A stretch of 64,000 bases of DNA, taken from assembly GCA_011109175.1 (NCBI GenBank), contig RDEW01000002.1, positions 1,408,111 through 1,472,110 on the forward strand. The letters run 5' to 3'. The position numbers and the translations under genes are program-made. The notes under the pieces are model-generated. The model was not told where the DNA came from. It saw nothing but the letters and a program-made list of their open reading frames with translations, and ran no database searches. Position 1 is the stretch's first letter, and every line of letters begins with the position of its first letter. This stretch comes from Dicyema japonicum. Taxonomy: Eukaryota > Animalia > Dicyemida. Below, piece by piece: positions 27,939 through 59,265 of this stretch.

Positions 27939-29381
27939 ATGATTCATGGGCTACTCTACATTTCCAAATATGTTATAAATATCCTGATATGCAGAATAAT
28001 TTCCTTCCATGTGATCAGAAATATAACTCTTCGCTACATATTTTCTATTTTAGCAGGATTTTATCTCCTTTATGGAGAATATGGAATGTTATTTCTCACA
28101 TTAATTATTTCAGAGAAGGATTCCACGTGTTAGCTCATTCACTGATAATATATTTGATAATATTGTACATTCCACACACTGGAAAGTCTCTTGCTCATCT
28201 TCGTATCTTTCGTATATTTGGGGGTACTACATTTCAAAACTGCGTGGGAAAATTATGAGAGTTTAACACAGTTGGCATTGCTAAGTTTGTATTGGAGACT
28301 TATTGTTAGCCCAATAATGATTTCAACCCAAAGATTAACTGCTTTAGTTATGTCATGCCACGATGGTCACCATAATGTGGAAGAAGTAAACGAGAAATAC
28401 GTTCTAAAGTCCTCATATATTGAATCGTAGAAAACATCCATCCTTGTTACAAATCCTTGGATATATTTTCTGTTTCCATGGAGTACTCTTTGGTCCTTTC
28501 TTCCATTTCAACGACTACGTAGAATACTTAGAATCCAATGAGGTAGTTTGCTTATTTCATGTAAGAAACCAAAGTTTCCCATAAAAGTTGTTTTAAAGAA
28601 GTTGATTTCTTCGCTATTAATTATTCAACTATCGAGGTATTTACTAGACTACAGAACACCATGGTGGATATACGGTGTGTTTTTTTGTTATCCCCCAGAA
28701 AAATCCATGGAAATAGATTCCGTTGTGTCGTTTTTTAGGTTTTATTTTTACGCATTTCTGTGCATCTTTGCGGTTAGAGTAAAGTACTATTTCTTCTGGT
28801 TGTTTTGTATAACATTGTCCTCAATTTAGCTGATGGATTGTTTAATTTGGCTGGATTCGGATATGACAAGGAAACCGACAACTGGTCCATGACGACAAAC
28901 GTAGATATTCTTGGTTTTGAGGTAGTTTTGAAGTCCCATCTTAGTTTGCTTCTCACATGCAGAAGGCTGTTGCTAGTTGGAACATGACAACAGTGAAATG
29001 GATCCGCTACATCCTCTACAGTAGAAATATTCCGTATAAACGGATCAAATTGTTTATCTTTATGGCTGCCTGGCATGGAGTCTACTCAGGATATTACATT
29101 TTCTTTCTGAACCTTTACATGTTTTTGCATGCAACTATAAAAGTATGACAGTGAATCACGTGTAGATGTACAAGTTCACCAAACGAATGAATATTTCACC
29201 AATGTTATCAAAAGCTGTCCAATCAGTGTGGGCTCTCGTATCAATTGGGTACATCTCCATCCCCTACGTCGTCCTCACATTGATAGTACACTTGAAATCT
29301 ATTGGTAAGGAATGTCGTTATTTTAGGTCTGTCGGCTTCTCTTTGCATTTTGTGGCTTTAATTATTATTTTAGTACTCTGA
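27939..29381 (+). CDS. MBOAT-family lysophospholipid acyltransferase (MBOAT1/2-like), 10 exons
   Basis: PIMISTQRLT, HPSLLQILGYIF..GPFF.F.DY, KYYFFW, WNMTTVKWIRY and AAWHGVYSGYY (catalytic His). Introns at 28088-28113, 28285-28309, 28409-28430, 28543-28565, 28675-28698, 28807-28829, 28922-28944, 29143-29165 and 29305-29326. Two or three small frameshifts, no nonsense codons. Confidence 0.88.
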
Positions 29382-29746
29382 CTGGGAATATATTTTTGAC
29401 GGGGGAATTATTTTATTTATTTATATTTCAATTATGTTTGTGAATAAGACTTGTGTCTTACACAAAAATAAGTAATTGTATCATGTTATTGTCTAACTTC
29501 TTTTGAATTGAGCCACTGCGTTTCTCTTTATACCACTCACTATTGTCTAGCTACTCTTAAATCTATACTGTGGTTCCATTAACTGTTTCATGTTATCTTC
29601 TAGCTCAATGGACTTTCGTTTGAGATCAATAATAACTTAACCAACATCACTCCCTTGAACATTCTGTAGTCTACTAACATACTTTTAAGAGTCCTCTTGA
29701 TCGTAATAGATTGAACATATTTTACTTACAATTATTTCAAAATCGG

Positions 29747-30034
29747 AATTTTCCCACAAGTTTTGAAATGTAGTACCCCCAAATATACGAAAGATACGAC
29801 AAGTGAGCAGGAGACCTTTCCACTGTGTGGTATGTGCATTATTATCAAATATATTATAAGTTAATGAGCTAACACGTAGAATCCTTTTCTGAAATCATTA
29901 ATATGAGAAATAACATTCTATATCTTCCATAAAGGAAATAAAATCCTACTAAAATAGAAAATATGTAGCGAAGAGTTATATTTCTGATCACATGGAAGCA
30001 AATTATTCTGGCATATCAGGATATCTATCACATT
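29747..30034 (-). pseudogene. Inverted partial duplicate of the MBOAT 5' end (27969-28254)
   Basis: Reverse complement aligns at roughly 90% identity and includes intron 1. Confidence 0.85.
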
Positions 30035-30320
30035 CACAAAGGAAAACTTATCGATATCTTGGAGAATTTGGTTGAGGCAGTACAGTGTCAGAATAATCCT
30101 TCTATTACTCGGAACAACGCAACTACGTGTACGTTTTGGAAATTTGGAGTCTGTCCCAATCGAGACAATGTACGGGGTACGCAGGGAAGATTCTTGTCAC
30201 TGGTTCTTTTGTGACATATCTGGAAGGCGGCACTCAGAGACTTCAGACTATTAATGTGGCGAACTTATTTCAAACTGAAGTGATTTATGCAGATGATATC
30301 GACTATATATCCAGGAATTT
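30035..30320 (+). mobile_element. RTE-like RT fragment
   Basis: GVRREDS...YLE...IYADDID. Confidence 0.6.
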
Positions 30321-30344
30321 GCTAATTTTATACTATATATAGGA

Positions 30345-30710
30345 ATCCTACACACGCCTCGGAGTTAAGGGTATCAGGTCGGCGCTGAGATCGCCTTTCC
30401 AGCATATGTGTAATCGAAGCCTTTTGGTTCAAGATATCCTACGTTTTCCAACTGACTTTCTTGGGAAAAAGTCTTCGACGAAGCTCGTCGCGAATGATGT
30501 GAAACTGGTTTGGATATGCCGAACGATCCTTCGAGCAACGCGTGACTGGGATGATGTCTACTTCAAGAATATCTTCGACGTTGCTGAGAGCTCTTGAAGC
30601 GGCAATGCATCCCGGCAGTACTGAGCCCGTGAGATTGGACCCCGGAGATGGGAAAAGACCGGATGGGTTAACTATTTTTCCGTTCACTGACGGAAAATCG
30701 CTCGTATGAA
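30345..30710 (+). mobile_element. CRE-like family A fragment with internal deletion
   Basis: Matches 34340-34920; DGKRPDGLTIFPF. Confidence 0.8.
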
Positions 30711-30714
30711 ATTT

Positions 30715-31135
30715 TTTCATTTGCATTCCTAATATTTTTCTGAAATTATAATAATTTTTCAAAGCTTCAGGAAAGAAATTGAGGTATAGTTCAAATTCCT
30801 AGCTACTTTTATAGCAATGTTTTTAAGAATAGGTCCTGAAACGGGAATAAATTCTTCCCTTGCTTTAAAAAAGCATTCATAAACAATTCTATCGAATTTC
30901 TGTGACAGACTGTCTCTTCTCTGAAATTTGACTAAGACAATTTGATTGTACGGACCCATTATTTATAGAGTTCATATAATTTTGTTTAATTCTTGATACT
31001 GCTCCTAAAAAATAGAATTATCAGATAACCTTTACTAATTTTATACTTTTTGACAATATCTCGCTCATGAAACAATTTTCGTTGATTTCTTGGACAATTT
31101 TAAGCTTTAACTCCAGAGTAAGCTTCCTCCCCATG
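30715..31135 (-). mobile_element. pogo/Tigger transposase N-terminus (HTH-psq/CENP-B)
   Basis: MGRKLTLELKLKIV and AREEFIPVSGPILKNIA. Confidence 0.75.
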
Positions 31136-31201
31136 ACAACAAAAACGTAAATCTAACACGCGAAGTTTAAGAAAATGTTATATAATTAAATTTAATATTA
31201 A

Positions 31202-31312
31202 TTGCAAGAAGGGTTATGGCTAAGACAAAAAATTGAAATAGCCATACTCCGAGAGAACTCGACGCAATCCACGCAGCAGGCTTCCTCAACTGACATTTGT
31301 TTAATTGTTAAA
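31202..31312 (+). mobile_element. CRE-like extreme 3' end, same family as 17335-17917
   Basis: GAAGGGTTATGGCTAAGACAAAA...GCTTCCTCAACTGACATTTGTTTAATTG. Confidence 0.8.
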
Positions 31313-31479
31313 AAAAATTTTTGTATAAAAAAAAATTGCAAGACTTTATATAAATTAAAAAAATTAAGTGCCCCACTAAGAGGTTCAGGTAATTTCCAAA
31401 TTTGGAAATTACTGTATAAAAATGATCTAATTTTCAAACTGCCCAAAACCTGGGGGTGCTCCAAAAATAGATGTGCCCC

Positions 31480-32250
31480 AATGAGGAGGTCCGCCCCAAA
31501 TGGAGGTTGCACTGTACCGATTCAATCTCTTGAATACAATCCGATCCATAATCTTTGATGTAGAACATATAAGGCATATTGGCCTATAACTAAAAAGACC
31601 TTTCTCGACTTTCCAGGTTTGAGGATCATCTTCACAATAGAACGCTTCCATAACGGAGGTTGTAGAACAAATAGTAGTTCATCGGACCCTTCTTTAAACA
31701 TAGTCATTGGAATGCTATCGAATCCAGGAGCCTTGTGTTTGCACTCGCGTATAGAAATTCTGACTTGTGACAGAGTGATTTCCTCTACCAGACTTTCCAG
31801 ATCGCCCATAGAGTAATCCATAGAATTAGATATCTCCTCTGAAAATTTCTCAGGTATAATACTAACAGGGTCAACTCCCTGTATTTTTTCCAGTTGTTTT
31901 CTGATACCGAAGGTACCCTTTCCAGGGGAATTGTGTTTCCCTCTTGATCGGCCAGCACAATATTTTTTGCCTTTAAATTTTCATCATTAAGCCTTTTGTA
32001 CATTTTTCAGAAACAAGGGTTCTTCCAGTTAACCTTCGAGGCTGCATTCTTCAATTTATTTTCGGCATTCACTTTCCAAACTCTTTGCAATATTTTTTGA
32101 ATCACATCAATTCTTTTTTTCAGAGTTGTCCTGTCCCACAAATCAACACATCGTCTGTGCTTCGCCTTCGGAGGATTCCGCTCGCGAATAAGATTCCGTA
32201 TTGTACGTGGGCAAGACTGTTTGTTCTTCAGAAAGCTCTTGGAGTCGACA
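31480..32250 (-). mobile_element. LINE pre-RT/RT N-terminal fragment
   Basis: KAPGFDSI, ILKPGK and SYRPICL. Confidence 0.7.
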
Positions 32251-32289
32251 GAAGATTACTGTTATTGCAAGTTTCTTTAATGAAGACTG

Positions 32290-33962: not shown

Positions 33963-34119
33963 AATGCATACACAAACACGGTGTTGATGCACGATTCGGG
34001 TGGTGGATCTGTTAAACTCAAGATATAGGCAAATAAGTCATGGCAACCCCAAGAAAAAAGTGATTATTATTCTTCCACAAAAAAAAATTTTCACATTAAT
34101 TTAAAAAGTAATGTTGAAA

Positions 34120-35260
34120 TCGAGAGGTCACGAGAAACTCTCCTTACTCGATGGTCATACAGCGTTCTTCTTTTTAAAAAATAGTATCGGCTTGCTTAAA
34201 CTCCTATATGCTCTCCGATGTTCTCCCTGCTTCAAACATAGTGACATCCTTCTGTCACTGGATCGGACATTGAGAAAATCAGCTGAATTGCTTCTAAACA
34301 TCCACTTTGATGTGCCGAGTTAGAACCAATACAAGCTTCCTACACGCCTCAGAGGAACAGGTCTCAGGTCGACGTTGGAGATCGCCTATCCAGCATATGT
34401 GTCATCGCTCTCAAGTGGAAGCCTTTTGATCCAAGATATGGTGTGAAACTGGTTTGGATATTCCAAACGATCCTTCGATGCAACGTGACTGGGATGATAT
34501 TTACTCCAAGAATATCTTCGACGTGCTAAAGTCTGAGGCCAACCAGCATTGTCTTGCATGCCTCGTGTCCGCCGCCAACCATGGGAGCTGAGCGTGGCTG
34601 GATGCACTCCCGTGTTCCTCCCTGGAGACCCTTTTGGACGATGACTGTATTCGGATTAAGATCGCACAACGTCTGGGAGTTGATGTTCGCGTCGAACACT
34701 AATGTCGCTGTGGAGGGATTGTCGATGCCAAAGGGCTGCATCCGCTCTCGTGCAAAAGGAGTGCGGGCAGAGCACCCCGCCATGCTGCTATGAACAACAT
34801 TGTCATGCGAGCTCTTCAAGCGGCAGGCTTTCCGGCAGTACTGGATTGGACCGCGGAGATGGGAAAAGACCGGATGGGTTAACTATATTTCCGTTCATTG
34901 AGGGAAAATCGCTTGTATGGGACTGCACTGTTGTGGATTTTTTCTCGAACTCGATGATACTCAGCTTGGCACAGTCTGCTGGATCGGCAGCCGATCTGGC
35001 CGTGAAAATCAAGGTTAAAAAATATGGCGAAATTGGAGACCGCTACCGTTTTGTACCGGTAGCAATCGAGAAGTCTGGTGCGGCCGGAAGTATTACAGCC
35101 TCTTTCCTAAAGGAAATCGGGGGAAAATTGGCCCACCGCAAGAAAGACGTGCGGGAAGCGGTCTGGCTGAGACAAAGAATTGATATCGCAGTTGTCCGCG
35201 AAAACGCTTACTCCGTAATTTCAGCAGCCGCTCTTTTCCTTAGTTAATAAATAATATTAT
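34120..35260 (+). mobile_element. CRE-like family A 3' half
   Basis: CRCG, LHPLSC, KRPDG, LVWD and VPVAIE. Confidence 0.9.
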
Positions 35261-37454: not shown

Positions 37455-39480
37455 TCCCCAAAATCTCAGAAAAGAGAATAGATGGAGACCCTAGTTCCGA
37501 AAGGAAATAGACATAACATAATGCGAAGAATAAAAACAAAAAACAAAATTTTCAGTGCATTATGAATTTTGTATTTGATAATCACTTCAATGGTAAGTGT
37601 GAGGGACAAATAATTATTCGACTGACATCTGAATGAGGAATTGCTACTTTTAATGTCATAAAAATTGAGAGGATTCAGGCAGGTTGTGAAACGTCAATTA
37701 ATAATATATGGCAAATATAGTATCTTGTGCGAATGACGGACATTTGCTATAGTTGGCAAACAGATTATTGACATTTTATAGCAAATCCGTCCAAACACGT
37801 AAACTTCCCAAAAAATTTCTATAAAAATTGTATTTTATAAATTAAAAACCGTTTTTTTTCAAATCAATTAGATCAATCTGCCATGTGCCATGATACATTT
37901 AGAGTATTAGTCTTGATGTCTTTCAGTGAAACTGTCTATTCCAATGTGGATTAAATTGTTAAGAATTTAACTAGGTACTGCATTTTTAACAACTCTTTAG
38001 TGACGAAACTAAGATGATGGATATGTTGAACTATCTTAATTATTTTAAAAACCTTAAAAAGAAAAATAATGAAAGCCTTCCTGTGGTTCACAGTGGAGGA
38101 ACCGATATTACTCAGGGACATTCAGTAAGGTTTTAGGTTACCTATAGACCAGAATCTGAGTGAATTTGGAATGAAAAAATATGTTTTCATTTTCTCAATG
38201 TCTTCTCCCGAGAAAAAATTCTGTGGAAATGTCCATAGAAGTCTCAGGGGGTCGTTCTGGAGACTAATGAATATGTGGAAGACTGCACCCATTTGATTTC
38301 AGGTTCACTCTCCTCCAATATAAACTCTGTCGTGCATGTCCGGAGGAAAGTGGATTCTCAAAATTTCTTTCGTATTTGAATGCCAATCCGCCTTGTTTAT
38401 TATTGATGTATGTTATTGATTTCATGAGAATTGATTCACCAGTTGTGAAATCCTTTGAAATATTGAACGAGGACGAGCATACTGATAAATCGTCAGTCTG
38501 ATCTCTCCAAGAATTGAGAGATATAATCTCAAGATTGCAGGAGCTTAGTGCTATCCTGGGAATGGATAAACCTGGCAATGGAGATCCCAGGTCATTTAAA
38601 AAGTAATCAACGAGAGGTCTGAAGATAGTTTTGGTGAATTCCCGATCCTAGGGAAAAGGCATCGTGATCTGGCACTACTTTCGACGACCACCAAGGTTGA
38701 CGTTTTAATGGTCAACGAGACAAAAGTGAAGAAGACTCAAACTCACACTATGGACGGATACTACTCGATAAATATACTATGGGAAGACGGTGCTATGGGT
38801 GGCACGGAAACTTCCCTTTCTACCGTGATGACTTACAAGTACGGAATCCTAACATCATCTCGGCCTCACAGTGCGAATTCGTGTCTATTGAAGTACGTTT
38901 CTGCGGATGATGGATAAATATAGGGGGTATATATTCGAAGGACATAAGGGACTGTTTACAGACATTAACAAATTCTTTGAGCAAAATGCGATGGCTATAC
39001 AAGTGGGTGACCTAAATACTAAGAACGTGAGTTACGGGTGCTACAAAATCAATGCAGATAAACGACTACTGAAGATCTTAGCCGAGAATGATGGCCTTGA
39101 AGTCATGAGCCAAACCACTTCTCTCACCATGGCGGAGACATGCTTGGAGTGTTCTTATCGCAACTACACGCATGTGGGATATCTGAAGTGACCATATTCA
39201 CCAAGAACGTGCCTTGAACATGAAACCGGATATCATCGAGATGTTTCCATTAAATACAACATATCTCACATATACTGAAAACACTATCGGCAATTTTTGT
39301 CTCAAGAACCTTCGTAGATGGATGAAAATACCTACGACAAGCCATGAGACGTGATCTATCAGACCTAATTCTGTCATACTTACGACTGTATGGAATGAAA
39401 ACAACTTTAAAAAGAGTATCAATCCTACATATATAATAATTGATCTAATTATTATTATTACCCCCAGGATCACTGGGTCA
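37455..39480 (+). mobile_element. LINE 5' region (ORF1-like plus APE)
   Basis: VNETK, GDLN and SDH APE motifs; inverted twin at 7216-8890. Confidence 0.8.
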
Positions 39481-40330: not shown

Positions 40331-42620
40331 ACGACTTCTACCTCCAAAGACTCTATTAACATTTTCAATCAAATCGACTACATCATCTGTCGAGTCAATG
40401 AAAAATCACTCCTACGTGACTCAAGGTCTTACGGAGGTGCAGCTATCGACAGTGATCACAAGATAGTCTCTGCCAAGTTCACAATGAGGACTTTGACTGA
40501 CCTAATAAGAAGAGAGCCAAACGTAGATGTAAGAAGAAGCTATAAAATGGAACAATTTTGTTACTCTACATCGATCAGAGACAACTACCAAATATCAATT
40601 ACGAAATTTCTCGAAACCTTGATCCCGGACTTTTTCTCCAAGAGGCACTGGGCGGAGACAATGGAAGGGATCTTCTCGGCAGCAAATGGGAATATCGAAC
40701 CTGGTCCCCAGCACTGTTTAAAAAATGTATACATCCAGATGTTCCCGCCCTTATTAAAGAACAAAGGGAACTAAGATTACAACTGGAAAATACTTCTGAT
40801 CCGGACAGGAAACAATTCTCGAAGTCTAGAAGAAGATCCATCCAGAAAACCATAAAGATTTTGAATAAGAAGCACGCCATTAACCTACTTGATTTAAGAG
40901 CTGCATAGGTTGAACAGTTAAAAGACTCATCAAAAATATTCACTGCAATCCGTCTGCTCAACAGAAGAAAACAAACGAACAAACTCAAACTCCATGAGGA
41001 GAATGGAAGACAACAAATCCCAAAGATCAGGCTGAATATTTGCGTCGTATTTCGAGATATATTAACTGTCCGCGGAGAAATATCTGATCATACTTGTGGA
41101 TACGCCACCCAACTTGATAAAGCTATCACACCTGGCAAAATCTCAAATGCAATGGTCAAACTTAAGAATGGTCGCTCCCCTGGACCGAATGGAATCAATT
41201 CAGAACTTGTCAAATATAGGCCACCTGCACTAACAGACAAGTTGCCAAAACTACTCAACTCTATGTTTATAAAAAAAGAATACCCAGCTCTTGGATCCGG
41301 ACTATTAATACCAATACAAAAACCTAACAAGCATGCTGGGCCTGTTGAAAACCTACGTCCAATAATCCTGCTAAACACCTTAAGGAAACTTCTGGCATTA
41401 GTTACGTTGAACCGAATCAGAGAACAAGTGGACAACTATCTATCCTCTAGTCACAGTGGATTCAGGACAGGAAGATCCACTGCAGATGTAGTATGGAGCC
41501 ACAAGTGGCGCTGCGCTATCAACCAGAGATTTGAAAGTGCAACGACAGTCCTGGGAATAGACCTTTCTAGGGCCTTTGACACGGTCCGTCGTGGTCTACT
41601 TCTCAAGATACTGAAACAATTCTTGGACCCAGATTCTGTCAATATGATCAGAGTGTTCCTATCTAACATGAAGCTCAGAGTGTGGTCGGTAAGACGTTAT
41701 CCCGTGAATTTACGTGCAATGTTGGTACTCCCCCCCTGCTATTTGTCATATATCTGGAGGCGGCATTACGAGATCTTCGGAAGTTCTATGATGGCAACAT
41801 CGTCGAAATTGCCTTATGCGGACGACGTCGACGTTGTGTCAGAGACAAATCGGCCACTTCGACTCCTCGAGCTGGCCCCTGCTGAACTGAACCGATGGTT
41901 CCTTGGAATGAACATCGCAAAAACTGACATTTGGAAATCAGGAGAATGGAAAGCAGATCAAGTGAAACATGGCGAAAAACAAACAAACTTGGCTCTTTAC
42001 TTGGAGACAGTCAAGATATTGCCAGAAGGAAAGCCCTCGCTTGGGTAACGATGAACAAGTTGAAGAAAGTGGATTGCAAACGACGATCTTGCAAATCACT
42101 TCGTTTGAGACTGTATAAGTTTTTGTCAAGTCGATCCTAATGTACAATTCATCGACCTGGGGAACGTCCAAAACCGAACAACTTGGACTAGACTCTTTCC
42201 ATCGAAGACAACTTAGATCCCTACTAGGACTGAACTGGCCAGCAAGAATAAAATGGAATCGCTGTACAAGAGCACGGTCCACTGTATCTCGAAATTGCTG
42301 ATATGCGCTAGAGGCTATTTGGACATGTCTTGCGTATGGACTTGAACGCTCCAGCAAACATGACAATGGAGGACTACTTTATGAAAAAAGGGCCGTGTCT
42401 TCGTGGACTCCGGCGTATTACACTACCTGAAACACTTGACGGAGATCTAAAGCTCGTGAACAAACGTCTAAGAAGTGGAGACGACTTGGACGAGTTGAGG
42501 AAAATCTCCTACGATCGAGGAGGTTGAAAAAAGTTGGTTCGGAAGATTGTTTCGAATGCTGCACGAGTGAAATTATAACTATTATGATTTTACAAATGTT
42601 GCTTATAATAATAATTATAC
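40320..42620 (+). mobile_element. RTE-like LINE (APE C-terminus, RT, 3' end), frameshifted
   Basis: QIDYI..SDH, RSPGPNGI, NLRPIILL, GFRTGRST, IDLSRAFD, YADD and LFGHVLRM. Confidence 0.9.
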
Positions 42621-43117: not shown

Positions 43118-43236
43118 TTTATCTTTATTTCAATATTTATTTATCAAAATAGTTATTATTTTGATGATATAATATTGATTATTACATAAATAGTCTATAT
43201 AAATGAACGATTTTGTACATATTCTGTGAATTAACC

Positions 43237-43512
43237 ATGGATGATCAAACATATTATTGCCAAAATTGCAATGTGCCCGTCCGAGATTGTTTCTGCGATG
43301 ACAGAACAATGTCAGTAGTGGAGGATCATTGTCGAACGTGTAATGTGCCAATTCGAGATGTTTCTCGTGATGACAGAACAATGTCAGTAGTGGAGGATCA
43401 TTGTCGAACATCTCTGTTTTTGATACACCCTCGGGATTTGGAACACTTCGAAAATTTTATTAGAAAATTAATAAATCCTTACAAAAAAGACCTCGTTTTG
43501 GAACACTTATAA
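43237..43512 (+). CDS. Small Cys-rich protein (CxxC-x6-CxC) with 24-aa internal repeat
   Basis: MDDQTYYCQNCNVPVRDCFC; 72-bp tandem duplication at 43267-43410 keeps the frame. Confidence 0.5.
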   Translation: MDDQTYYCQNCNVPVRDCFCDDRTMSVVEDHCRTCNVPIRDVSRDDRTMSVVEDHCRTSLFLIHPRDLEHFENFIRKLINPYKKDLVLEHL

Positions 43513-43900: not shown

Positions 43901-45208
43901 TCGAATCCTAAATTATACGTCTAACTTATTTATTTGCTTATTAACCCCATTTTTGGAAGCCCAACAAAAATAGTCACTACTAATTAATCCAAGGAAGGAA
44001 CCCAAGGGAGAACATCTGCTTGTGTCGACCAAATCCATCCTCCAATAGTCCATTACACCCTTCCGCTTCCGAGAGAGGTGGAGAACTAGGTCCGCCCTCT
44101 TCCATTTCGTCGCACGTTTTACTGCCGCGGACATCACTTTATTCTTTAGCGAGAGAGTTTTTCATAATGGTAAATCTTCACCAGGGATTTAGACAGGAAG
44201 AAAGGTCGAAGATCTTTTAAACAACTGCGCGTCGTGCAGAAGGACCCGTCGTCTCCCGGGTGGGATCTGTTTGACGAGAATTGACGTCTAATATATCTAA
44301 TTAACATTTTTATTATCGATTGATCTGTAAAATAGTTTCCATTAACAGCGTTTGAAATATTTCTATAACAGAAAATGACTAATATGCGGATTGTAAATGA
44401 CGGATTGAGATCAAACTCACTTTCAGTGTGGAGTGAAAACAAAGTTCTCCTTAATCCTGCTTTTATCGATAAACAACACGTGGCTGTAAACGGGAATATA
44501 GCAATTTATAATAAAATGTCTTATTTTATGTTACTAAATAATTTACCAAAGCGACATTTTGTGCTGCAAAGTCCACGATTCTGGCAATTTTGTGGCAGTC
44601 GAATTATCTGACGGAAAAATTAACGTCAAACCATGAATTATTTAAGATTTACGATACCCATAACGGAAATTTGCTTCATGGTCTTTATGACGATGATTTG
44701 AAAAAAAACCCCCTGCAAGTAGATCCGGTTTATTAAGGAGACACAGTTCTTAATAGCTAATTGTACTTTTTAGAATAAAGCCTATAGATGGGTCGGGAAT
44801 AGTCAAATCTTGGCAATATAAGAACGAATATTGCCTTAGGACAGTTAAGGAATCTCGGTGTACCTTCTCCCAGGCGGTTCAACCAGCCATAAAAAGAGTT
44901 CTAATGGGGACATATTTACATATGACGTTAAGACAGGAGATGAAGTCATGTGTTGTTTTAAGGGGTTTCAGTAAAAATAACTTGAAGAGATCAATTCACC
45001 AAAGTGACAGGACACATCTTTCGTGTTTTCCGAGTATATCATCCGTCCACACAACATTCTTTCATTACTGGGGGATGGGATAACACGATTTTGGTTTAAT
45101 TGTGGGTTACTAATGTAATTTTGGGATGATCGAAGTAAACATGCTCAGGTTAAAAGTTTGTAATTTAATAGAAAAGAAAAATCTCAGGTCCTATGTGGAG
45201 AAGTAAAT

Positions 45209-46983
45209 TTATTTAAAGATAAATTTATCGGTTTGGTATTCATCAGATATATCATCATCACTAAATATTTTGTCTTTGTTTTTCAAAAATGGTTGGTTTT
45301 CGCTAAAAATAAATCCAAAGCTACCATTTCATTTCAAAACAATTAAATCCGTCATGTGACTGCTGATCCATCACTAAAATTAATAAAACAAAAAATACAG
45401 CTATAACTCTCCCCCATCTTCCAATACAGATTTTAACCGCCCAGCAAATTAAAATGATAATCAATAATACAATGAAAGATATCGCAATTATCCTTCCAGA
45501 TCTGTTAGTTTTTTCTAAATATCCGAATAATGGGCTACTCGTATATTTTAATTCAATAGGAGGGGACTTATTCTCCCAAAAACGTGGCTCTCCAATATAC
45601 AGTAGTAGATTCCCGCCATGCTATCAAGATTACTGACATTTTGTGTTGAAATTTTCATAGTTCTGCTATTACACCTAATTGTACCTCTTAATATTCCCAG
45701 TCATTGGGGATACTTTGTATTTATCAGAGGAAGTGATTATTTTGTCTTCACGGTAGAAGTTAAGGTCGCTGAGATTTGTTAGAATTGGATCGATGGGAAC
45801 GATACATTCTAAAGTTGTGGATTGATTAGGCTTAAGAAAGGCGGTCTTTGGAGAATGGAGAATTAGCGACGGCACTCAAACATAAATATGAATAAACTCT
45901 CAACAACGATCATTCTGGAAGAGGATGTAGCAGTTATATTGTTGGAATTGAGATAAAATAAGCGAAGCACTGAATTGAGGCTGATTTTGTTATATTTCTG
46001 AGCAAAATTTGGCTGAAATTATCCCCTAAAAAATAAGTGCATAAATACATTCATGCATGATTTCCCCGTTAATGGTCCAATGAAGTCCTTTTCTTTTCGA
46101 CTCCCAATCCGATATCCCAATTGATGTCGTGAACCAGCAAGATCCACCATTAAGGACCACACAGTCTTTCATGTCATTATCAATCACAAGGGATTCAATG
46201 TAATCAAAAAGAGCACTTCGATTCCCAATACTGCAGTTCCAACGTCCCGGAGTTAGATCTTGGTCAAACTCTAGCAACCGTTAACAAAGCTTTAACCACG
46301 TGTGATGTTTGTCCCCATTTTATGATAACTTATTTCTTTTGATCCAACGCCAGAAAAGAAACATTTAAATAATTTTGAGTGTGATATTCTCGCTGTAAGA
46401 CCAGGCGGGGGATATTGCATGAGTGGAGAAGTAGTTAAGGATTGATTCGTCAAAAATATTCTAATTTTGTTCCCATCAGTGTTTGAACAGTTTATATTCG
46501 CATTTGAGCACTTAATCGTTACTCCGTCAAAGAATAGAATATCTATTTTCAATCAAATTGGGATACCCGGGAGTAATAATCATAGTCAAATGAGCAGCAC
46601 TCGGATTTACAGGAGCCTGGGACCGCCTTAGTTTCCACTTTTAGACAACCATTGCTTGGGACGTCCAAATTATAAACCACGGTTTTCTTATCTAAATATT
46701 AGAATATTATAAAATGACCACTATCAGGAAACAGTTGGGAGATCGGTCGAAGAGGTCCTTTAATGCAGCTGCAGTCGTTTTTGGCGACACAGTATTCGTT
46801 GTTAACCAAGTCAACTCTAAAAAAATCATGAATGAATTACTGAGCTGACGACTGGTCGACGTCGCATATGAAAAAACCGAAGGATGGCCAGACAAGGACA
46901 GGTGGAACAAATTTGAGAGGAATACAACGGTGATTAAAATTGCTGGTTATGAGGAAAAGTAGATTTAAAAAAAAGTATAACAT
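45209..46983 (-). CDS. Type I membrane protein with Ig-like domains, 10 exons
   Basis: Signal peptide MLYFFLNLLFLITS; Ig-like motifs EYCVAKN, GRWNCSI, WTINGE..IQCFA and TLECIV..GIYYC; TM IIAISFIVLLIIILICWAV; short acidic tail. Introns at 46817-46840, 46692-46718, 46543-46566, 46271-46296, 46026-46048, 45875-45897, 45663-45684, 45374-45398 and 45303-45324. About 3-4 single-base frameshifts must be corrected. Confidence 0.75.
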
Positions 46984-47289: not shown

Positions 47290-49730
47290 AGGTGGAGGTC
47301 GATGCTTGCGAAGACGGCTATCTTGTATTGCTTTTCTTATTAAGACAGGTCTCATATTTTGTTTTGCATCTGTTCAACTGAGACTTGGAGTTCAATGGTA
47401 CGATCGAAGTTGCTTGAAGGAGAAACCCGATCCGCATTGAAGGACCTGATGGACCTCTCAATCCAACCTCTGATAATACAAGATTCTATTGGAGAAGCAT
47501 CCACCCTCTCCGAATGATCTACGTCACTGTTCACCCCCATCAAAAGTGACCCCTTTGACCACGTCGTCTGAGGATGTCATCAGGGCGTTATGGAACTTTG
47601 CACCAAGTAGCAGTGGAAGTCTCGATGGCTTAAGGCCCAGCCATCTTAAAGACCTTATTTCACCGACGATTGGAGACCAAGCATGTGGTCTCTCCTTCTC
47701 ACTCACTTCTCTTATGAACAGGATATTATCTGGACATTTGCCTGATTTGATAGGTCATATCTTGTTTTCGATAGTTTGATTGCAGTCGACAAGATGGGAG
47801 GTAGGATCCCCCGATCGCGGTCGGATTCATTTCAGAGACTAGCAGCCAAGATTGCTTCCAAATTTTCTACGTCAATCTTGTCAAAATTCCTTACTTCTCA
47901 GTCAAGTTGGAGTCTGAGTTCGTCTTGGATGTGAGGCAACCATTCACTCCATCAGGAAATTCATGAACCGCAGCATTCAAGACTTTAAAAGGCACACTAT
48001 GGTAAAAGCTGGACATCAAGAACGCTTTTAACAGTTTAAGAAGAGACTGCATTCTGGAGGCCTGCAAGAAAGATGTCCATATATTTTTGAACTGGTCAAT
48101 TATTCATACGGAAAGCCTACGTCACTATTGCACGGGGATTTCATGGTTCCATCGTCCTCAGGTGTTCAACAGGGCGACCCCCTCGGATCACTGCTGTTCT
48201 CCCTCGGAATTGAAGGATACGAAGCTTCTCGATGCCCACTCAACAATTGGTACTTCGATGAAGTTGTCATAGGAGGTGCCCCGGAAACGGTCTTCCAGGA
48301 GTTAGAAGTACTCATCCCCGCGTTGTCCGAGGTCGGTCTTGAGTTGAATACACGAAATGTGAAATAACAAACTGTGGTGTGCTGACGATGACTTCTCTTC
48401 AATTGTTCCAAAATTTTACTCCTTGTTTCCTGGTGGGATTTCGACCCCTGAAAACGAATTCATTTTTCTTGGATCACCGATCACTAGGAATGCGATGAAG
48501 CATGTCCTCCTTGACAAAAACAACTATGCTAATCGCTAGACAGATTACAGCTACTTGACTCACACTTAGCACCATTCCTCATGAAAAGAAGTCTTAACAA
48601 TCAGAGAATCGCCTATTTACTCAGGACAGCCCCGTACTATTCCAATTGGAGCAACTTGAGCACTTTGATTTGTCTTTCCTCAGCTCGACGGAGCAAATAT
48701 TCAAGTCAAATTCGATGATGCTACATGGAAGCAAGCCTTACTCCCAGTTAGATTTGGGGGTCTAGGAATCCATCGTACTTTGGACGTCTCACTTACTGCA
48801 CATCTGTCTTCACTCACGGCCTGCGAACCTTTGGTCAGGAGGATTCTACACTCCCTACCCGAATTCTCAATTGACCAAGACATAATCCACGCACGAGATG
48901 CCTGGAATGCCACCAACCTCCCCCTGCCTCCTTCACAAGACTGCCAGCAAAACCTAGACAATTTATTATGTTGAAAATCACTTGGACTCCTACTGGAATC
49001 AGCCAGTCAGCACCGACGCGCTTGTTTGCTTTCGGGGGCTTCCCCTAAAAGCGGAGCTTGTCTAAACGCCATCCCCAATGGAGTTCTGGGCACCTTTCTG
49101 GATGATGAATGCGTTAGAAGTGGTATCTCTCTGCGGCTGAGACTGAAAGTATGTGTACCTCATCCGTGCCGATGTGGCATTCTGATAGACTGCTATGGCC
49201 TGCACCCTATCTACTGCCAGAGGAGCGCTGGCAGATCTCCAAGGCACAAGGCTCTGAATGAGATTGTCAAGCGGGCTATGGATGCTGCTGGATACTCGGC
49301 CATTCTTGAACCGGTCGGGTTATGCAGAAGTGACGAGAAACGACCGGACGGGATGACCATATTTCCCTTTGAGGCCTGGAAACCACTTGTTTGGGACGTG
49401 ACATGTACAGACACGTTCGCCCCGAACAATCTTCACGAGTGAGCTTGAAGGGCCTGCTCTGCAGCCGTCAAGGCGGAGAAGGCCAAACTCGAAAAATACG
49501 TCGACCTTCCCAATAATGTTAAATTTGTTCCCCTTGCTATGGAGACTTTGGGATCCTACTCCCCCTCTACAATTGAGTTTTTCGGACGTCTTTTAAACCG
49601 GATCACCTCATGCACTGGAGATCTCCGGAAACGCCGCTGGCTATTTGAGCGAATTTCGCTCGCAATTCTGAGAGGGAACAGCCACGCAGTCAAGGCGGCA
49701 ACTAACTAATTTATGTTTTGACCAAAATAA
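47290..49730 (+). mobile_element. CRE-like element (family B), longest copy: RT plus zinc knuckle plus RLE
   Basis: GSLDGLRP, KLDIKNAFNS, GVQQGDPLG, WYFD, LPVRFGGLG, CRCG, KRPDG and ILRGN. Confidence 0.92.
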
Positions 49731-50049
49731 TTAAGTAAATTTAGATACCTGAAATGATTTGTTCATACACAAAATATGTTGTCAATTTTTCATTTGAAAT
49801 AGCTGAACCAACATTTGGTGAATTGACGGATAATGAATATCTAAGAATCAACAAAACGGTATTAATATGTCCATCTGTAATCAATGAAATTTGTCATCAT
49901 AAAGTGATTACATGGTTATTAGGATATTTTAGTTTAGAATTTATTATTTAATTTCGATAAAGTTATTTCATTATTTAATATTGTTTTAATTCTCTAATTA
50001 AGAGTTAGCAATGCTAAATTTATCTTTGACTCTCTATCTCCTGAACTTC

Positions 50050-50670: not shown

Positions 50671-50679
50671 TGAAAGTTT

Positions 50680-51698: not shown

Positions 51699-52689
51699 GT
51701 TATTCCTAATCTGAAAGAACAATGTTGGATAAACATTCACCTGGAGTTGGTAATAGTTTGAAATCAGAATAGAAAGCATATTCATGAAGTCAGACGTATC
51801 TCATATTGATTGAGACAATTACATGAGCTTCTTGTTGAATAATTTATGTATTTGACCCAATGAGTTTTCAACGAAGGATAATATCGTTATTGCAAGCAGG
51901 ACGAAATGGAACAATCATGGAAAGCTGTTTCGTCGAGGGTTAATAACGTTAAATAAACCGGATAGTAACATAACAGGAGGAATTACCCTCGATTTTTAGG
52001 GATCAATTAGAAACATGCAGACTTGATCCCTGATGATAAAAAGATTCAAATAACGATGCAAGTAAGCGGAAGAATAGCTGTCAATTCAAAACTAAAGTGT
52101 TACCTTATTGGAAGGTGAAAGCAGTCAGAAAATGCGAAACCAATGCTGCGGGTTATGACTTCATGGTCCTTTTCAACGAGGGACTTGAGATTATGTTTGA
52201 CGTTTTACTGATTCTATATGAATTATGCCTCAGACAAGGTCATATTTTTCGAAGATATTCATTATTAGAATGATTCCGAAACCGGAAAAGCTGAGAAGAG
52301 ATCCAACAAGTTGCAAACCCATTTCTTCACTCAGTTCAATTTGGAGCATAGTGGTTGGAAGGATCTATGGCACAAAAAATGTGAAATTTTATATAAAACT
52401 CTGAGGACAAACTTAAAGGAAAAAGTTCCTGGGACAAGTGTTCATCCCACAATGCAGGACAAAAATATAACCCCTTCTATAACTCCAAAATCTTTAATAA
52501 TAAAGTTTTTTTATTTTTGTGGAAAATCAGAGACCTGATGTATTGCTAAATTACTTGCAAAAATATTAATTAAAATTAATTTTAAATTAAATTAATAAAT
52601 ACTGTGGTGTAACAAGGGTTAATTATAATATTAAACAGAAAAAATAAGATAAATACAGTCCGACCACACCCCAAGCCACCCCCGCTTTT

Positions 52690-53000
52690 TAGGGCATTTG
52701 TGAATCATGCCTATTTTTGAGTATTAATTGATAAACCATGGAGGTACTGGAATAATTGCTGCTAAAGTCTAATTTACGTATTATCAAAATGTTATTGTCA
52801 CATACAGAGCTCTCCTTAATATTTGGTGAGATATACTCTAGAAAATTTACGGTTATCGAGGGGACTCATCAAGGAGACTCCTTCTCCCAACTTCTATTCA
52901 TTCTATATTTGGAAGTTGTCATGAGAGAACTCAGAACACTATTCCAAGAAAAAAGTAACTTCCAGAGATGATGTGGACCCAATTGCTAATAAAAAACAGA
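52690..53000 (+). mobile_element. RTE-like RT fragment
   Basis: GTHQGDSFSQLLFILYLE. Confidence 0.65.
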
Positions 53001-55009: not shown

Positions 55010-56872
55010 CCAGTCACGTTGCCTCGAAGGATCGTTCGGCGTATCCAAACCAGTTTCACACCATTCGCGACGAGCTTCGTTGAAGACTTTTTCCCAGAAA
55101 GTCCGATTGAAAACGTAGGATATATCGGACCAAAAGGCTTCCGCTTGAGACCGATGACACATATGCTGGAAAGGCGATCTCCAGCGCCGACCTGAGACCC
55201 GTTCCTACAAGGCGTGTAGGAAGCTTGCATTGATTCCAACTCGGCACGTCAAAGTGGATGTTTAGAAGCAATTCAGTTGATTTTCTCAATGTCCCATATA
55301 GTGACAGGAAAATGTCACGATGTTTGAAGCAGGGAGAACATCGGAGAGCATATAGGAGTTTGGGCAAGCCGATGCTATTCTTCAAAAGGAAGAGCGCTGT
55401 ATGAGCATCGAGTAAGGAGAGTTTCTCCGTAACTCTAGAGAGTTCATCCTCTTTTGTTAGTAGATGGCTCCGCAGTTCCTTTTCGTCAAGTGGGCACCCA
55501 AGAAAGTATGTCCGCTCCCTGGGTATGACAGTAATTCCAGGTAGTACCGAGTTGAAAGACTCGACCACGTTGATAAAATCACTCTCCGAGTATGTGATAT
55601 TTATTAGCTCCGATTTCTTTATATTTATCTCAAGTCAGAAGTTTCGTAGTCTTGGGCCACGGCATGTGACAGAACGTCATGAACTTTTCTCCACGGCCCT
55701 CCAATCGTGGCGTCTTCAAGATACCAGAAGTTTAGTTGTGTGTTTGATAGTGCGGACAATTTCATCGATGGCCAAAGCAAAGAAGTGGACTAAGGGTCCC
55801 TTGTTGACTCTAGTCTCCGAACAGATAATCTTGTCCCCGAAAACCAATGAAGAATTGGTTCCGTAAGCGAGGAAGACAAATATAATAAGTTCCAAAGCTC
55901 GTTTGCTTGTAGTTTCGAAAATCTGATCCCTCCGCAGTGAATTGAAGGCATTGAAGATGTCCAGCTTGACCCCAATGTGTGGGTTTTGTTCGTCTTTCTG
56001 TCCAAAAAAACACCTCGCAGCATGCACTGACTCCTTGCATCCGTTCCTTACACCAACCCCAGTTAGATGGGAAAAATTCTTCAGATATTCTCGGACAGAC
56101 AATAATGCATGCGATTTTCGCTGTCAGTCTTCTGAAATAGTTGCCGACCGCGATGGGCGGACCCCGCTTCGAGATTTTTGAAAGCCACTAGATGTGCACT
56201 GAAAAGAGTTCTCTTGCAGGGGAGCAAAATCTCTGTTCAAAATAAACATAACCAGTTTTGTAATTGATTTGACAAGGTTGCAGCCAGCTTCTGCAGTAGC
56301 CCCCCGTAAGATCCTTGATGTGACCTAGCCGCAAGCCATCGAGACCTTCACTGCTACTCGCCGCAAACGACGAAATGCCGCGTCGCACTTGGCTTTCGGT
56401 GACGGTCGTCCTTGGCACATTTCCGGATGCACGAATGGGCGGTAATCTGCCGAAGGACATGGATGTTTTCGTTTGAGTAGTTCAAGCACCTCAGGCGTCG
56501 CAGCCATGACAGTATCGTCGCTGGCAACAACGCGCAACGCCGCTCGGACGTCGCCTTCAAATAGTTTACGATTTACCGACTCGGTAAATGAAATTCTTTG
56601 TGCTATTGGAAAGAAACTGAGGAGTTTTATCCAGGCCTCCTGGTCGTCGGACGTGAGAGCATCGTCAATTGCAGAGGCCAGGCATGTAGCCGCGGGGATC
56701 CGGACGGGTCTTGGGATCCTGATTGGGATCTTCCTGGCTTTCCTTAGATCCTACAAAAAAAGCACGAGGTTGTCCACATCATTGAAGCCTAGAGGTTCAT
56801 TCGGTTCGACGTGCTCGTTGGAATGATCCTCTTGGTTTTTCCGACCAGTGCCCGTGCTCGTTTGGAATGATC
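55010..56872 (-). mobile_element. CRE-like family A, N-terminal plus RT portion
   Basis: GDVRAALR, GLDGLR, KLDIFNAFNS and LLYALRCSPC. Confidence 0.9.
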
Positions 56873-57520
56873 CTATTATTAATTAATAAGATAGTTCTGA
56901 ATTTATTGAGGTATTTTAAAATTATATTTATTTTATAAAAAATATGACATGTGCTCTCCGCGCATAGGCGTGAGTAGAATACAGGCAACATTTCACTGTC
57001 TCGTCTTATGGTTGCTAGAATTCAAATTTGCAGATCAACCCCTTTTATTTTCGATAAGTTGAGATCAGTCAAGATTTATGTTAATGGTGGGGATGTGATA
57101 ATTTCTCAAAGTCATTTTCTGAAATTAAATGCAAGAGAAAGGTCGATTCCCCGAGGAATCTCAATATAACGTGGATGTACAATGGAAAACTGGATGGAGC
57201 AAATTCCATGTTCCAAGTCACTCAAAATGGAAACGACTTTATTTGGACCTTAAGTAACAAGGACTAGATACTTTAGTGCGGTTTACGAAACCTCTAATAA
57301 GATTTTCGATAGTTCCGCAAACCTTGCACATTGCATACGAAGACTTATCCCAAAAGTAAGCTTTAGAGTAAAGTTACGCGTTTTCTCAAATTTCTTGATA
57401 ATTGTGTCTCTTTTTTGAGTCGTACCATCCTTCTAAACCGTATAACATTGCAGGAAATATTGCGGAGTGAAGACATAAACAAGGGTCTCCAACTCAAGTT
57501 TTAATTTTCTAATGCAAAAC

Positions 57521-57800
57521 CGGGTGGCTTAGTGGTTAGGTGTCGGGCTTAAGTGGCTTAGGCTACGGGGTTCGAATCTTGCTGCTGTTCACCTGGTGGA
57601 AGGTTCCACGCATCTACGATGCAGAAATGGTTTGACGAGTGACGCCGTCATCAGTGAATACTCACTGCGGAACTGGATTGTCTAGAAAGGACACTCACAC
57701 AAGAAAAAGAAAAAAAAGAAGTGAAGACCTTGGTTCTACGATTAGTTAAATTAACTGTTCTTTACTTAAATAAAGTGTGTGTCCTGCCTATGCGGAGCTA
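57521..57800 (+). mobile_element. tRNA-derived SINE, most complete copy
   Basis: A-box TGGCTTAGTGG, B-box GGTTCGAATC, structured core at 57602-57674. Confidence 0.82.
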
Positions 57801-57804
57801 CACC

Positions 57805-57985
57805 TAAGAAAAAAAACGTTCCCATTTCCGGACCTTTAATCCAAAAAATCGGCATTATTGTAATTCTAAAAATCATTGTATTAGGACTGAAAGTCGCATC
57901 TAGAATCTTACTTCAAAATTTTAAGGTTTCAAACGGATGGTTAGAAAAATTCAAATTAAGACATGAATTTAAGTTCAAAACTTTG
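57805..57985 (+). mobile_element. pogo/Tigger CENP-B HTH fragment
   Basis: NVPISGPLIQ..FKVSNGWLEKFKLRH. Confidence 0.75.
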
Positions 57986-58095
57986 TTCTCCCTCTACGGT
58001 TATTCATCATAACTGTTCTTCACTTAAATAAAGTGTGTGTCTTGTCTGAACGGAGCTATAGCTAATGTGGCTCTCGTAATAGTGCAGTTTTTCTG
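57986..58095 (+). mobile_element. SINE 3' segment
   Basis: Matches 21510-21620, ending GTGCAGTTTTT. Confidence 0.7.
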
Positions 58096-58866
58096 ATAAA
58101 GCAAAAGTCTTAAAATTCCAAGGATTTTGGAAATACTAAATATTCAAACAAAAGTCTCCCACCTCTGTATATGTAAATTTTCGAAGTTTACTTCAGAAAG
58201 AGTTATTTCACTAATCCAAAATTCTCACAAAAGATCTTAAATTTTAAAGAGCACTGGAAGTATCAGACAAATATTAATGACTATTTCATTCAAGAACGAG
58301 TTTTATTTTTCCGGGAAACACAATTAAATTAAACTTTACTACCAGCTTTTAAACCTGTCTCCTCTTAGAAGAGAATTTTCCACATAATCCCATCCATTTC
58401 CACCTCACTCAGGTTACCTGGACAGTCATTGAAATGAACAGGACCTTGAATTTTATATATAATTTTCATAGGCACTAAATATTTTTTCATTTAGATGCGA
58501 AAATAATGATGCTATTTTGTTCCTATTTAAAAAAAATTTTTCAAAGTCAAGGTCACCATCTCCATTACATCCACCTCCGCAATAGAGCACAGATGGTTTA
58601 TGGTGAAACTGACCATCTAGTTTTTCGGATCAACTCAATGTTCTAAATGGTCACCAAAGCTCCACGTGAAACTGAAGGCTTCGAGGGCGTATCTCGATAG
58701 CTATCATATGAGGAAACATCATGGCTATTCAAGCTCCGTAAATTAAGTGATCTTTTTACATTTTTTAATAACAATAAATCCTAATATTCAAAAAATAATA
58801 ACAATTAAGAATTCCATAACAAAAAACCCATTAAATTAACCAAATAACCAAAATTATTAGTTTCCA

Positions 58867-59265
58867 TCAATCGCCTATATAAATAATGAATATACAATCT
58901 AAGTTTTCTTTATCAAAGTTTTCTTGATTGGATGTTTGCGAATCTAAATTTAGTTCTTCAAAGTCCAGATCATCTATTTGATCGTCTGTATCACTTTCCG
59001 TAAATCCGAATTTACCGATTGGATACATAATTTCGTATGGTCCACTGTGACATAACTAAATTTTCAAATAATATTTAATTGAATTAAGAGAGTACACTTT
59101 AATCTGACCCCACTTCGTATTCTCGTCTATTTCGAAATCATCACTATGTTAATAACCTAATTACTCTTGTGTATCATTTTTTAAATTTGTTTTATTTTGC
59201 TCACCACACGTGCAATCAGAGCTACTCTTATTGCATGCTTGACAATTATTGCTTTGATCACCCAT
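58867..59265 (-). CDS. Small acidic protein (about 105 aa) with N-terminal CxxC-x6-CxC motif
   Basis: MGDQSNNCQACNKSSSDCTC...KWGQIKLCHSGPYEIMYPIGKFGF...; introns at 59144-59164 (21 nt) and 59056-59097 (42 nt), probably also 58875-58895 (21 nt), give an uninterrupted frame. Confidence 0.65.

What the first reader, a model, noticed from the sequence alone, without database searches (positions are those of the whole stretch)
27939..59265. Intron-rich genes whose introns are almost all 21-27 nt
Seen: nine introns in MBOAT (22-26 nt), nine in the Ig-like gene (22-27 nt) and 21/42/21-nt introns in the small gene. They are GT..AG and AT-rich, with no obvious branch-point consensus, and removing them restores family motifs. 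Known: this is far below usual animal intron length and close to the spliceosomal minimum; very short introns are reported in dicyemids and some myxozoans. Inference: a reduced animal parasite with a modified, length-measuring spliceosome. The miniaturised introns sit in a TE-bloated region, so intron shrinkage is decoupled from genome compaction.
Basis: partly seen in the sequence, partly recalled or inferred. Interest (0 to 1): 0.75.

Follow-up and report, generated by a model that had tools for sequence, protein, structure and literature searches.

The report
Known tiny introns, frameshifted gene copies
Genes in this repeat-rich stretch are interrupted by 21-27-base GT-AG segments that are very likely real, shrunken ancestral introns of a parasitic animal (likely a dicyemid, otherwise a myxobolid myxozoan), a feature already published for both groups, and the gene copies here also carry one-base losses, one pair of which mimics an extra intron.

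Summary
Real but already known. In the MBOAT1/2-like gene (27939-29381) a length-free spliced aligner picks eight GT-AG introns of 20-26 nt. It of 39 introns at 20-27 nt in 80 other MBOAT loci. Seven of nine intron positions match, in position and phase, 40-95-nt introns of other eukaryotes, so these are shrunken ancestral introns. No RNA run was listed, so splicing is inferred. Corrections: the MBOAT copy lacks single bases at four places relative to other copies or alleles, and segment 28165-28186 is coding. The Ig-like gene cannot be read through by removing introns alone. The small gene has no support beyond GT-AG and stops. The lineage is not pinned. Intron median 23 nt, 38% GC and LINE load fit Dicyema best. 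Sub-30-nt introns with reduced signals, at conserved positions and in 49-68% repeat genomes, are published (PMC13644364, PMC6736024, PMC11557904). A modified spliceosome was not testable; myxozoans keep U2 and U2AF. The scan has noted dicyemid-type tiny introns on other DNA before.

The parts
27939..29381 (+). MBOAT1/2-like lysophospholipid acyltransferase gene, 411 aa with X at four one-base gaps; one of several copies or alleles
   Evidence: Pfam MBOAT on two exons; 262 bits to a profile of 29 full-length relatives against 103 for the best single frame; named relatives are lysophospholipid acyltransferase 1/2/6
28088..28113 (+). intron, 26 nt, phase 2
   Evidence: chosen in 4 of 4 raw runs; same position and phase as a 68-nt intron in L012
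28165..28186 (+). NOT an intron: coding segment that mimics a 22-nt GT-AG intron because the window copy lacks two single bases (near 28185 and 28197)
   Evidence: extra bases in all contig depth of X1 and X2 at both places and in the in-window duplicate; reading it as coding closes an 8-residue gap
28285..28309 (+). intron, 25 nt, phase 2 (24 nt in some copies); needed once the base missing near 28265 is allowed for
   Evidence: position shared with a 64-nt intron in L012
28409..28430 (+). intron, 22 nt, phase 2
   Evidence: 4 of 4 raw runs; shared with L035 and L075
28543..28565 (+). intron, 23 nt (or 20 nt from 28546), phase 0
   Evidence: frame change required; aligner prefers 28546; position not seen in the 80 loci
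28675..28698 (+). probable intron, 24 nt, phase 1, in frame, no stop
   Evidence: not chosen by the aligner; profile column 251 phase 1 equals a 68-nt intron in L012, in a poorly aligned stretch
28807..28829 (+). intron, 23 nt, phase 1
   Evidence: 4 of 4 raw runs; keeping it costs 15 bits
28922..28944 (+). intron, 23 nt, phase 0
   Evidence: 4 of 4 raw runs; shared with L075; exon edge seen in database single-exon ORFs
29143..29165 (+). intron, 23 nt, phase 0
   Evidence: in-frame stops if kept; shared with L020 and L075
29305..29326 (+). intron, 22 nt, phase 2; needed once the base missing near 29282 is allowed for
   Evidence: shared with a 95-nt intron in L020
29747..30033 (-). inverted partial duplicate of the MBOAT 5' part, 91% identical, with the 26-nt intron and the unbroken frame at the 28185/28197 equivalents
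45208..46983 (-). Ig-domain membrane protein gene, broken as assembled; ten GT-AG candidates: 46840-46817 (24), 46718-46692 (27), 46566-46543 (24), 46296-46271 (26), 46048-46026 (23), 45897-45875 (23), 45684-45663 (22), 45538-45515 (24, in frame, uncertain), 45398-45374 (25, uncertain), 45324-45303 (22)
   Evidence: model by eye and script; Ig I-set/Dscam-like look-alikes for 45678-45875; 7 of 10 candidates phase 1 in the X-bridged model; no open path without extra bases
44380..45250 (+). broken WD40-repeat gene (ends approximate) with candidates 44530-44551 (22), 44625-44646 (22), 44763-44787 (25), 45149-45171 (23)
   Evidence: read by eye; Pfam WD40 E 0.008, under the curated cut-off
58868..59265 (-). 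possible 104-aa acidic protein gene with 59164-59144 (21), 59097-59056 (42), 58895-58875 (21)
   Evidence: sequence only; not above shuffles; no atlas hit

Best explanation
The 21-27-nt GT-AG segments are likely ordinary major-spliceosome introns, at positions shared with other eukaryotes, that have likely shrunk to about 23 nt in a parasitic animal, likely a dicyemid. Shown: the segments exist; their removal restores MBOAT homology; seven of nine MBOAT positions are shared with longer introns elsewhere; signals are reduced to GT(A) and (T)AG. Inferred: the spliceosome defines each intron across its short length, ignores AGs closer than about 20 nt to the donor and takes the first usable AG beyond that, branching at a weakly defined A. 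Retrotransposons fill the space between genes while these introns stay short. The copies in the window are broken by one-base losses, from recent decay of duplicates or from deletion-biased assembly error.
For: Profile score 262 bits spliced against 103 unspliced. The free-length aligner picks 8 introns, all 20-26 nt, and forcing 31 nt or more drops the score from 229 to 134. Control: 0 of 39 calls at 20-27 nt in 80 other MBOAT loci. Shared position and phase at profile columns 68, 125, 162, 320, 386, 436 and 251. In database single-exon ORFs the residue before column 320 is Q or K (CAG/AAG) in 34 of the 45 that reach it (68 rows in all), against E in 36 of 36 full-length rows. One-base indels among copies fall inside two introns (28294, 29320). 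Homology-free score for MBOAT: 392 with 20-27-nt introns, 155-299 in six other length classes, 0 of 60 shuffles reach it. Median 23 nt in 25 candidates against D. japonicum quantiles 22/23/24/25 (PMC13644364 S14); window GC 38% against 36.7%, with 49% repeats and many LINE ORF2 copies (PMC6736024). Early AGs skipped 13 times; later internal AGs 2 against 6.9 expected.
Against: No spliced read was seen. The lineage is not shown: no close relative was found for MBOAT (best identity 31% in the tree set, end branch 2.33, in no starred clade), RTCB or the retroelement. T. kitauei also has 37.5% GC and mostly 20-25-bp introns (PMC4986447). Ig-like and small-gene introns have no homology test, and their homology-free scores do not single out the 20-27 class. 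At least 2 of 25 candidates have an internal AG at 18-19 nt, so the distance rule is loose. The candidate set was chosen by eye with short lengths in mind, which biases the pooled statistics.
Confidence: 0.8

Rival explanations
1. The same real introns, but the host is a myxobolid myxozoan rather than a dicyemid. This changes the label only; the finding is still known.
For: Myxobolid medians are 22-27 nt in 75-175 Mb genomes (PMC13644364 S14). T. kitauei has 37.5% GC and mostly 20-25-bp introns. M. honghuensis is rich in duplicates and transposons.
Against: T. kitauei, M. rasmusseni and M. honghuensis have Q10 = 20 and H. salminicola Q25 = 25, both fitting a 21-27, median-23 set less well than Dicyema. 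Their repeats are mostly DNA transposons (LINEs 0.07% in T. kitauei; retroelements 9% in M. rasmusseni), whereas this stretch is at least 27% retroelement.
Confidence: 0.25
2. The host is a third animal (or non-animal) lineage with sub-30-nt introns.
For: No close relative was found in any search; MBOAT placement is unresolved.
Against: Dicyemid and myxozoan proteins evolve fast (established) and need not appear as named hits. Length quantiles, GC and repeat type fit Dicyema. Ciliates that read TAA/TAG as Gln are unlikely: 5 of 5 Gln codons in MBOAT are CAA/CAG and there is no in-frame TAA/TAG.
Confidence: 0.12
3. The segments are not introns but chance GT-AG pairs used to explain frameshifts in decayed or mis-assembled genes.
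For: This is true for 28165-28186. 93 of 170 random one-base deletions can be read through by re-choosing 20-27-nt GT-AG pairs, so an open frame alone proves little. It may hold for some Ig-like, WD40 and small-gene candidates.
Against: It cannot explain seven positions shared with longer introns elsewhere, the insert-sized gaps against the profile or the clean control.
Confidence: 0.04
4. The window's MBOAT copy is a working paralog whose base losses are absorbed by new splicing: one exon piece becomes a 22-nt intron and two 3n+1 introns are kept or shifted.
For: A full open frame is reachable as assembled with seven 20-27-nt introns (426 aa). Two of the three lesions cost only -1.5 and 5.4 bits, a level reached by 33 of 170 random deletions (loss up to 8 bits), and the third 23.7 bits (56 of 170 at up to 25). 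Listed differences from other copies are 11 synonymous to 13 non-synonymous (27 of the 40 rows shown, 125 more not shown).
Against: The test is post hoc. The neighbouring Ig-like, WD40 and RTCB genes carry uncompensated one-base losses. 11 of 12 indel rows shown are bases missing from the window, as expected from assembly error or decay. X1 and X2 show no contig with the window's state at 28185/28197.
Confidence: 0.07

Closest known systems
Ultra-short introns of Dicyemida (D. japonicum, Dicyema sp.; PMC13644364, PMC6543705, PMC6736024; Ogino et al. 2010 seen only as cited there)
   Same: GT-AG introns of about 22-27 nt, several per gene, reduced GTa...AG signals, about 37% GC, repeat- and LINE-rich genome.
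   Different: Identity of the organism not shown; the genes here are frameshifted copies; no RNA check.
Ultra-short introns of Myxobolidae (Henneguya salminicola, Thelohanellus kitauei, Myxobolus rasmusseni, M. honghuensis; PMC13644364, PMC4986447)
   Same: 20-27-nt introns at conserved positions, no clear branch or pyrimidine motif, found in genomes of up to 175 Mb with up to 68% repeats.
   Different: Their short peak lies at 20-22 or 24-27 nt and they have a tail of kb-sized introns (means 248-1292 nt); their repeats are mainly DNA transposons. No long intron was found in the four genes here.
Tiny introns of ciliates (Paramecium about 25 nt, recalled; Stentor 15-16 nt, as cited in PMC13644364)
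   Same: Size class and AT-richness.
   Different: Standard code in MBOAT, an Ig-domain gene and dense retrotransposons point away from a ciliate macronucleus.
MBOAT1/2 (Oysgedart-type) lysophospholipid acyltransferases, Pfam PF03062
   Same: Full-length match with the WN...W and WHG motifs; seven intron positions shared with other loci.
   Different: About 28-34% identity to the nearest relatives; this copy has four one-base gaps.

Membership tests
U2-type spliceosomal introns | GT...AG ends | tested here: met
   25 of 25 pooled candidates under 30 nt; this was also the selection rule
U2-type spliceosomal introns | removal restores a homologous reading frame | tested here: met
   MBOAT only, with X at four gaps; not met without extra bases for the Ig-like gene
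U2-type spliceosomal introns | absent from mature mRNA | not testable with these tools
   no RNA holder listed; the four runs laid cover introns, repeats and intergenic DNA alike and show no joint at any intron
U2-type spliceosomal introns | branch-point motif | tested here: inconclusive
   TACTAAC 0 of 25, YTRAY 7 of 25, A at -7 in 12 of 25
Ancestral (shrunken) rather than newly gained introns | same position and phase as introns of other eukaryotes | tested here: met
   7 of 9 MBOAT positions; columns 200 and 285 not seen in 80 mostly intronless loci
Dicyemid/myxobolid ultra-short introns | median under 30 nt with signals reduced to GTa and AG | tested here: met
   median 23; +3 A in 15 of 25, -3 T in 18 of 25, no fixed +4 to +6 motif; window only, hand-picked set
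Dicyemid/myxobolid ultra-short introns | organism belongs to Dicyemida or Myxobolidae | tested here: inconclusive
   no close named relative; long branch beside Macrostomum at SH-aLRT 89 in a quick tree; indirect fit of GC, repeats and lengths
Modified or reduced spliceosome | altered or lost snRNAs, U2AF, SF1 | not testable with these tools
   no genome held; no snRNA in the window
MBOAT (PF03062) | profile match with catalytic His in WHG | tested here: met
   (35.9 bits on one exon, cut-off 27)
Immunoglobulin superfamily membrane protein | Ig fold domain plus transmembrane helix | tested here: inconclusive
   atlas look-alikes at 0.87-0.93 to I-set/Dscam clusters; no Pfam hit; fold model unusable, pLDDT 45; hydrophobic segment seen in the translation

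The most novel reading that the evidence does not exclude
In a genome whose spliceosome pairs GT and AG mainly by distance, one-base indels near introns are absorbed by keeping, shifting or creating 20-27-nt introns. The MBOAT copy here would be a live example: three lesions, one new intron made from exon and two ancestral introns kept or moved, still giving a full-length acyltransferase. Tiny introns would then buffer frameshifts and let paralogs rewire their exon structure fast.
Probability: 0.07. Interest if true: 0.65.

Novelty: already known. Interest (0 to 1): 0.2.

Why it matters
Introns under 30 nt test the lower size limit of the spliceosome, but their existence in dicyemids and myxobolids, their conserved positions, reduced signals and presence in repeat-rich genomes are already published. 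This locus adds one more gene showing ancestral positions. It also gives a practical warning: with 20-27-nt introns allowed, 93 of 170 random one-base deletions could still be read to full length, so DNA-only models here invent introns and hide frameshifts. It would matter more if the organism proved to be a third lineage, or if the frameshift-buffering reading were confirmed in RNA.

Tried and rejected
Whole genome: none held, so no snRNA, U2AF or SF1 inventory. RNA: no RNA holder listed, which is no evidence either way; the four runs behave as DNA of one sample and gave no intron joints. Lineage searches that led nowhere: MBOAT exon by word index, 0 hits of 4 candidates; RTCB exon, best hits 72-80% across many eukaryotes; retroelement domain, 120 listed hits without an organism name; the tree was the quick search only, the careful one did not finish; scan look-ups by genome, relatives and sequence were blank. 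Pfam on 245 stop-to-stop pieces found only MBOAT, RtcB, RVT_1, weak WD40 and two weak matches taken as chance, Imm47 and PIGBOS1. The atlas gave only unnamed clusters for 46029-46280 and nothing for the small gene. The single-sequence fold of one Ig-like exon was unusable. No paper giving MBOAT1/2 exon structure was found, so human positions were not compared; other eukaryotic loci were used instead. Rejected: 28165-28186 as an intron; a TAA/TAG=Gln ciliate; open-frame length alone as proof of an intron. One WD40 coordinate was off by 2 and corrected; pooled counts come. The 42-nt segment and the RTCB introns were left out of the pooled 25.
Full report
What was checked. No genome is held and no RNA run was listed, so splicing could be tested only by homology, by comparison with other copies and by controls.

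MBOAT: the introns are real by homology. One exon found 246 relatives (150 listed); named ones are lysophospholipid acyltransferases 1/2/6 of animals. A profile of the 29 full-length hits scores the best unspliced frame at 103 bits and the nine-intron model at 262 bits. I wrote a spliced aligner with a flat intron cost and no length preference. On the raw window four introns (26, 22, 23, 23 nt) were chosen in 4 of 4 settings, and others varied. With an unknown base at the four places shown by other copies, it chose eight introns of 20-26 nt; forbidding introns under 31 nt dropped the score from 229 to 134. As a control, the same aligner on 80 other MBOAT loci (many intronless, some near-duplicates) called 39 introns, none of 20-27 nt and one of 29 nt.

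The positions are old. Six of the eight match, in profile column and phase, introns of 40-95 nt in L012, L020, L035 and L075. The in-frame 24-nt candidate maps to column 251, phase 1, where L012 has a 68-nt intron, though the alignment is poor there. That makes 7 of 9. Short database proteins that are single exons read through their flanks agree: before column 320 they show Q or K in 34 of the 45 rows that reach it (68 rows in all), where 36 of 36 full-length rows have E; at column 386 they show V (a GT codon) in 60 of 68 rows against 9 of 36. So these are ancestral introns that shrank, not new inserts.

The copy in the window is frameshifted. Contigs of four runs from one sample show related copies or alleles with an extra base near 28185, 28197, 28265 and 29282. 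The partial inverted duplicate at 29747-30033 has the first two as well. Hence 28165-28186, a 22-nt GT-AG segment that restores the frame as assembled, is coding in the family, while 28285-28309 and 29305-29326 become necessary introns. One-base indels among copies lie inside those two introns (28294, 29320). Of the indel rows shown, 11 of 12 (5 not shown) and 9 of 12 (65 not shown) are bases missing from the window. A 163-nt contig matches the window copy exactly, so the copy exists as such. Whether its gaps are decay or assembly error I cannot tell. Listed coding differences are 13 non-synonymous to 11 synonymous, which suggests the divergence was largely under selection and the gaps are recent or artefactual.

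The other genes are weaker. The Ig-like gene has ten GT-AG candidates of 22-27 nt. Removing them gives 129 aa; three or four one-base gaps must be bridged with X to reach 520 or 512 aa, and then 7 of 10 are phase 1, the usual phase between Ig modules (established knowledge). No path with 15-45-nt introns passes about 46515. One exon resembles I-set/Dscam clusters; Pfam and a fold gave nothing usable. The small gene's 21/42/21-nt segments are all multiples of three in one frame; it is not above shuffles and has no look-alike. A broken WD40 gene inside the stretch has four more candidates by eye, and a decayed RTCB fragment outside it has one or two.

Signals and mechanism. In 25 pooled candidates (hand-picked; 42-nt and RTCB segments left out) the median is 23 nt, GC 28%, +3 is A in 15, -3 is T in 18, and there is no TACTAAC. 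AGs ending 4-13 nt from the donor are skipped 13 times (8.2 expected). AGs from 14 nt up to the acceptor occur twice (6.9 expected). This fits, weakly, a minimum distance of about 20 nt followed by the first usable AG. That is intron definition with a size floor; it does not require a rebuilt spliceosome. I put the real-intron reading at 0.8 overall and higher for the MBOAT set.

Who the host is. Not shown. MBOAT is a long branch (2.33) with at most 31% identity, joined to Macrostomum at SH-aLRT 89 in a quick tree and in no starred clade. RTCB and retroelement searches named no close relative. Indirect fit favours a dicyemid. D. japonicum has intron quantiles 22/23/24/25 (PMC13644364 supplement S14), 36.7% GC, 49% repeats and many LINE ORF2 copies (PMC6736024 passages). 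The window has 38% GC and at least 27% retroelement protein in the stretch. Myxobolids peak at 20-22 or 24-27 nt and are richer in DNA transposons, but T. kitauei has similar GC. My odds: dicyemid about 0.6, myxobolid 0.25, other 0.12-0.15.

What is known. Hadjez et al. [quoted passage not shown] PMC6543705 (passages) gives a 27-bp median for Dicyema sp.; PMC4986447 (passages) gives mostly 20-25 bp for T. kitauei. The decoupling point is visible in print: M. rasmusseni has 174.6 Mb, 68% repeats (PMC11557904 passages) and a 22-nt median, while Kudoa at 35-40 Mb has medians of 50-62. The authors themselves link shortening to compaction. PMC8855578 (passages) describes mixed reduction and expansion. 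Earlier scan notes report dicyemid-type tiny introns on other DNA; they prompted me to weigh dicyemids and are not used as support.

The boldest reading left. As assembled, MBOAT still has a full open path with seven 20-27-nt introns. Random one-base deletions can be read to full length in 93 of 170 trials, 33 at a cost of 8 bits or less, and the three real lesions cost -1.5, 5.4 and 23.7 bits. Multiplying the rates gives roughly 1 in 100, post hoc and with the two-base lesion compared to single deletions. This leaves room for a working paralog whose frameshifts are absorbed by re-chosen tiny introns, but the uncompensated losses in the neighbouring genes argue for error or decay. I give it 0.07.

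Verdict. Observation partly confirmed: firm for MBOAT, plausible for the Ig-like gene, unsupported for the small gene. Interpretation partly supported. The phenomenon is already known; interest 0.2.

Noticed in passing
window 4734-5457 (+): Decayed RTCB fragment with a stop and five or more frameshifts; a 23-nt GT-AG candidate at 4768-4790 (1 of 3 settings) and a 19-23-nt one ending at 5071.
   Followed up: partly
window 44380-45250 (+): Broken WD40-repeat gene with four 22-25-nt candidates and a fifth 25-nt segment that ends in AA instead of AG (read by eye).
   Followed up: partly
window 7216-8881 and 37461-39122: 1.67-kb inverted duplication at 96.8% identity; further repeats of 1.0 kb (25391-26391 / 55280-56286) and 0.68 kb (49050-49729 / 60041-60703).
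   Followed up: no
window 17374-17928, 34684-35247, 48975-49709, 60180-60647 and others: Many fragments of a non-LTR retrotransposon with a zinc-knuckle and 'KRPDG...WD' endonuclease-like domain (family label recalled, not tested), plus other reverse-transcriptase fragments (RVT_1 at 40909-42045); nearest relatives 55-60% identical and unnamed.
   Followed up: partly
window 12521-12593 (-): tRNA-Ile(AAT).
   Followed up: no
window 27850-29500: MBOAT has several related copies or alleles in the runs, some truncated or with a stop at 28140, and joints skipping 354 and 454 nt without GT-AG ends.
   Followed up: partly
window 43207-43512 (+): 101-aa open frame with two near-identical Cys-rich repeats; not examined.
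   Followed up: no
window 57000-57500 (+) and 51700-52560 (+): Gene-like fragments with possible 23-25-nt GT-AG segments; not above shuffles (8 and 9 of 60), no Pfam hit.
   Followed up: partly
L024, L033, L034 and 17 other loci: A recurrent 45-72-nt in-frame insert at profile column 385 was called as an intron in 20 loci; it may be a coding insertion of one subfamily rather than an intron.
   Followed up: no
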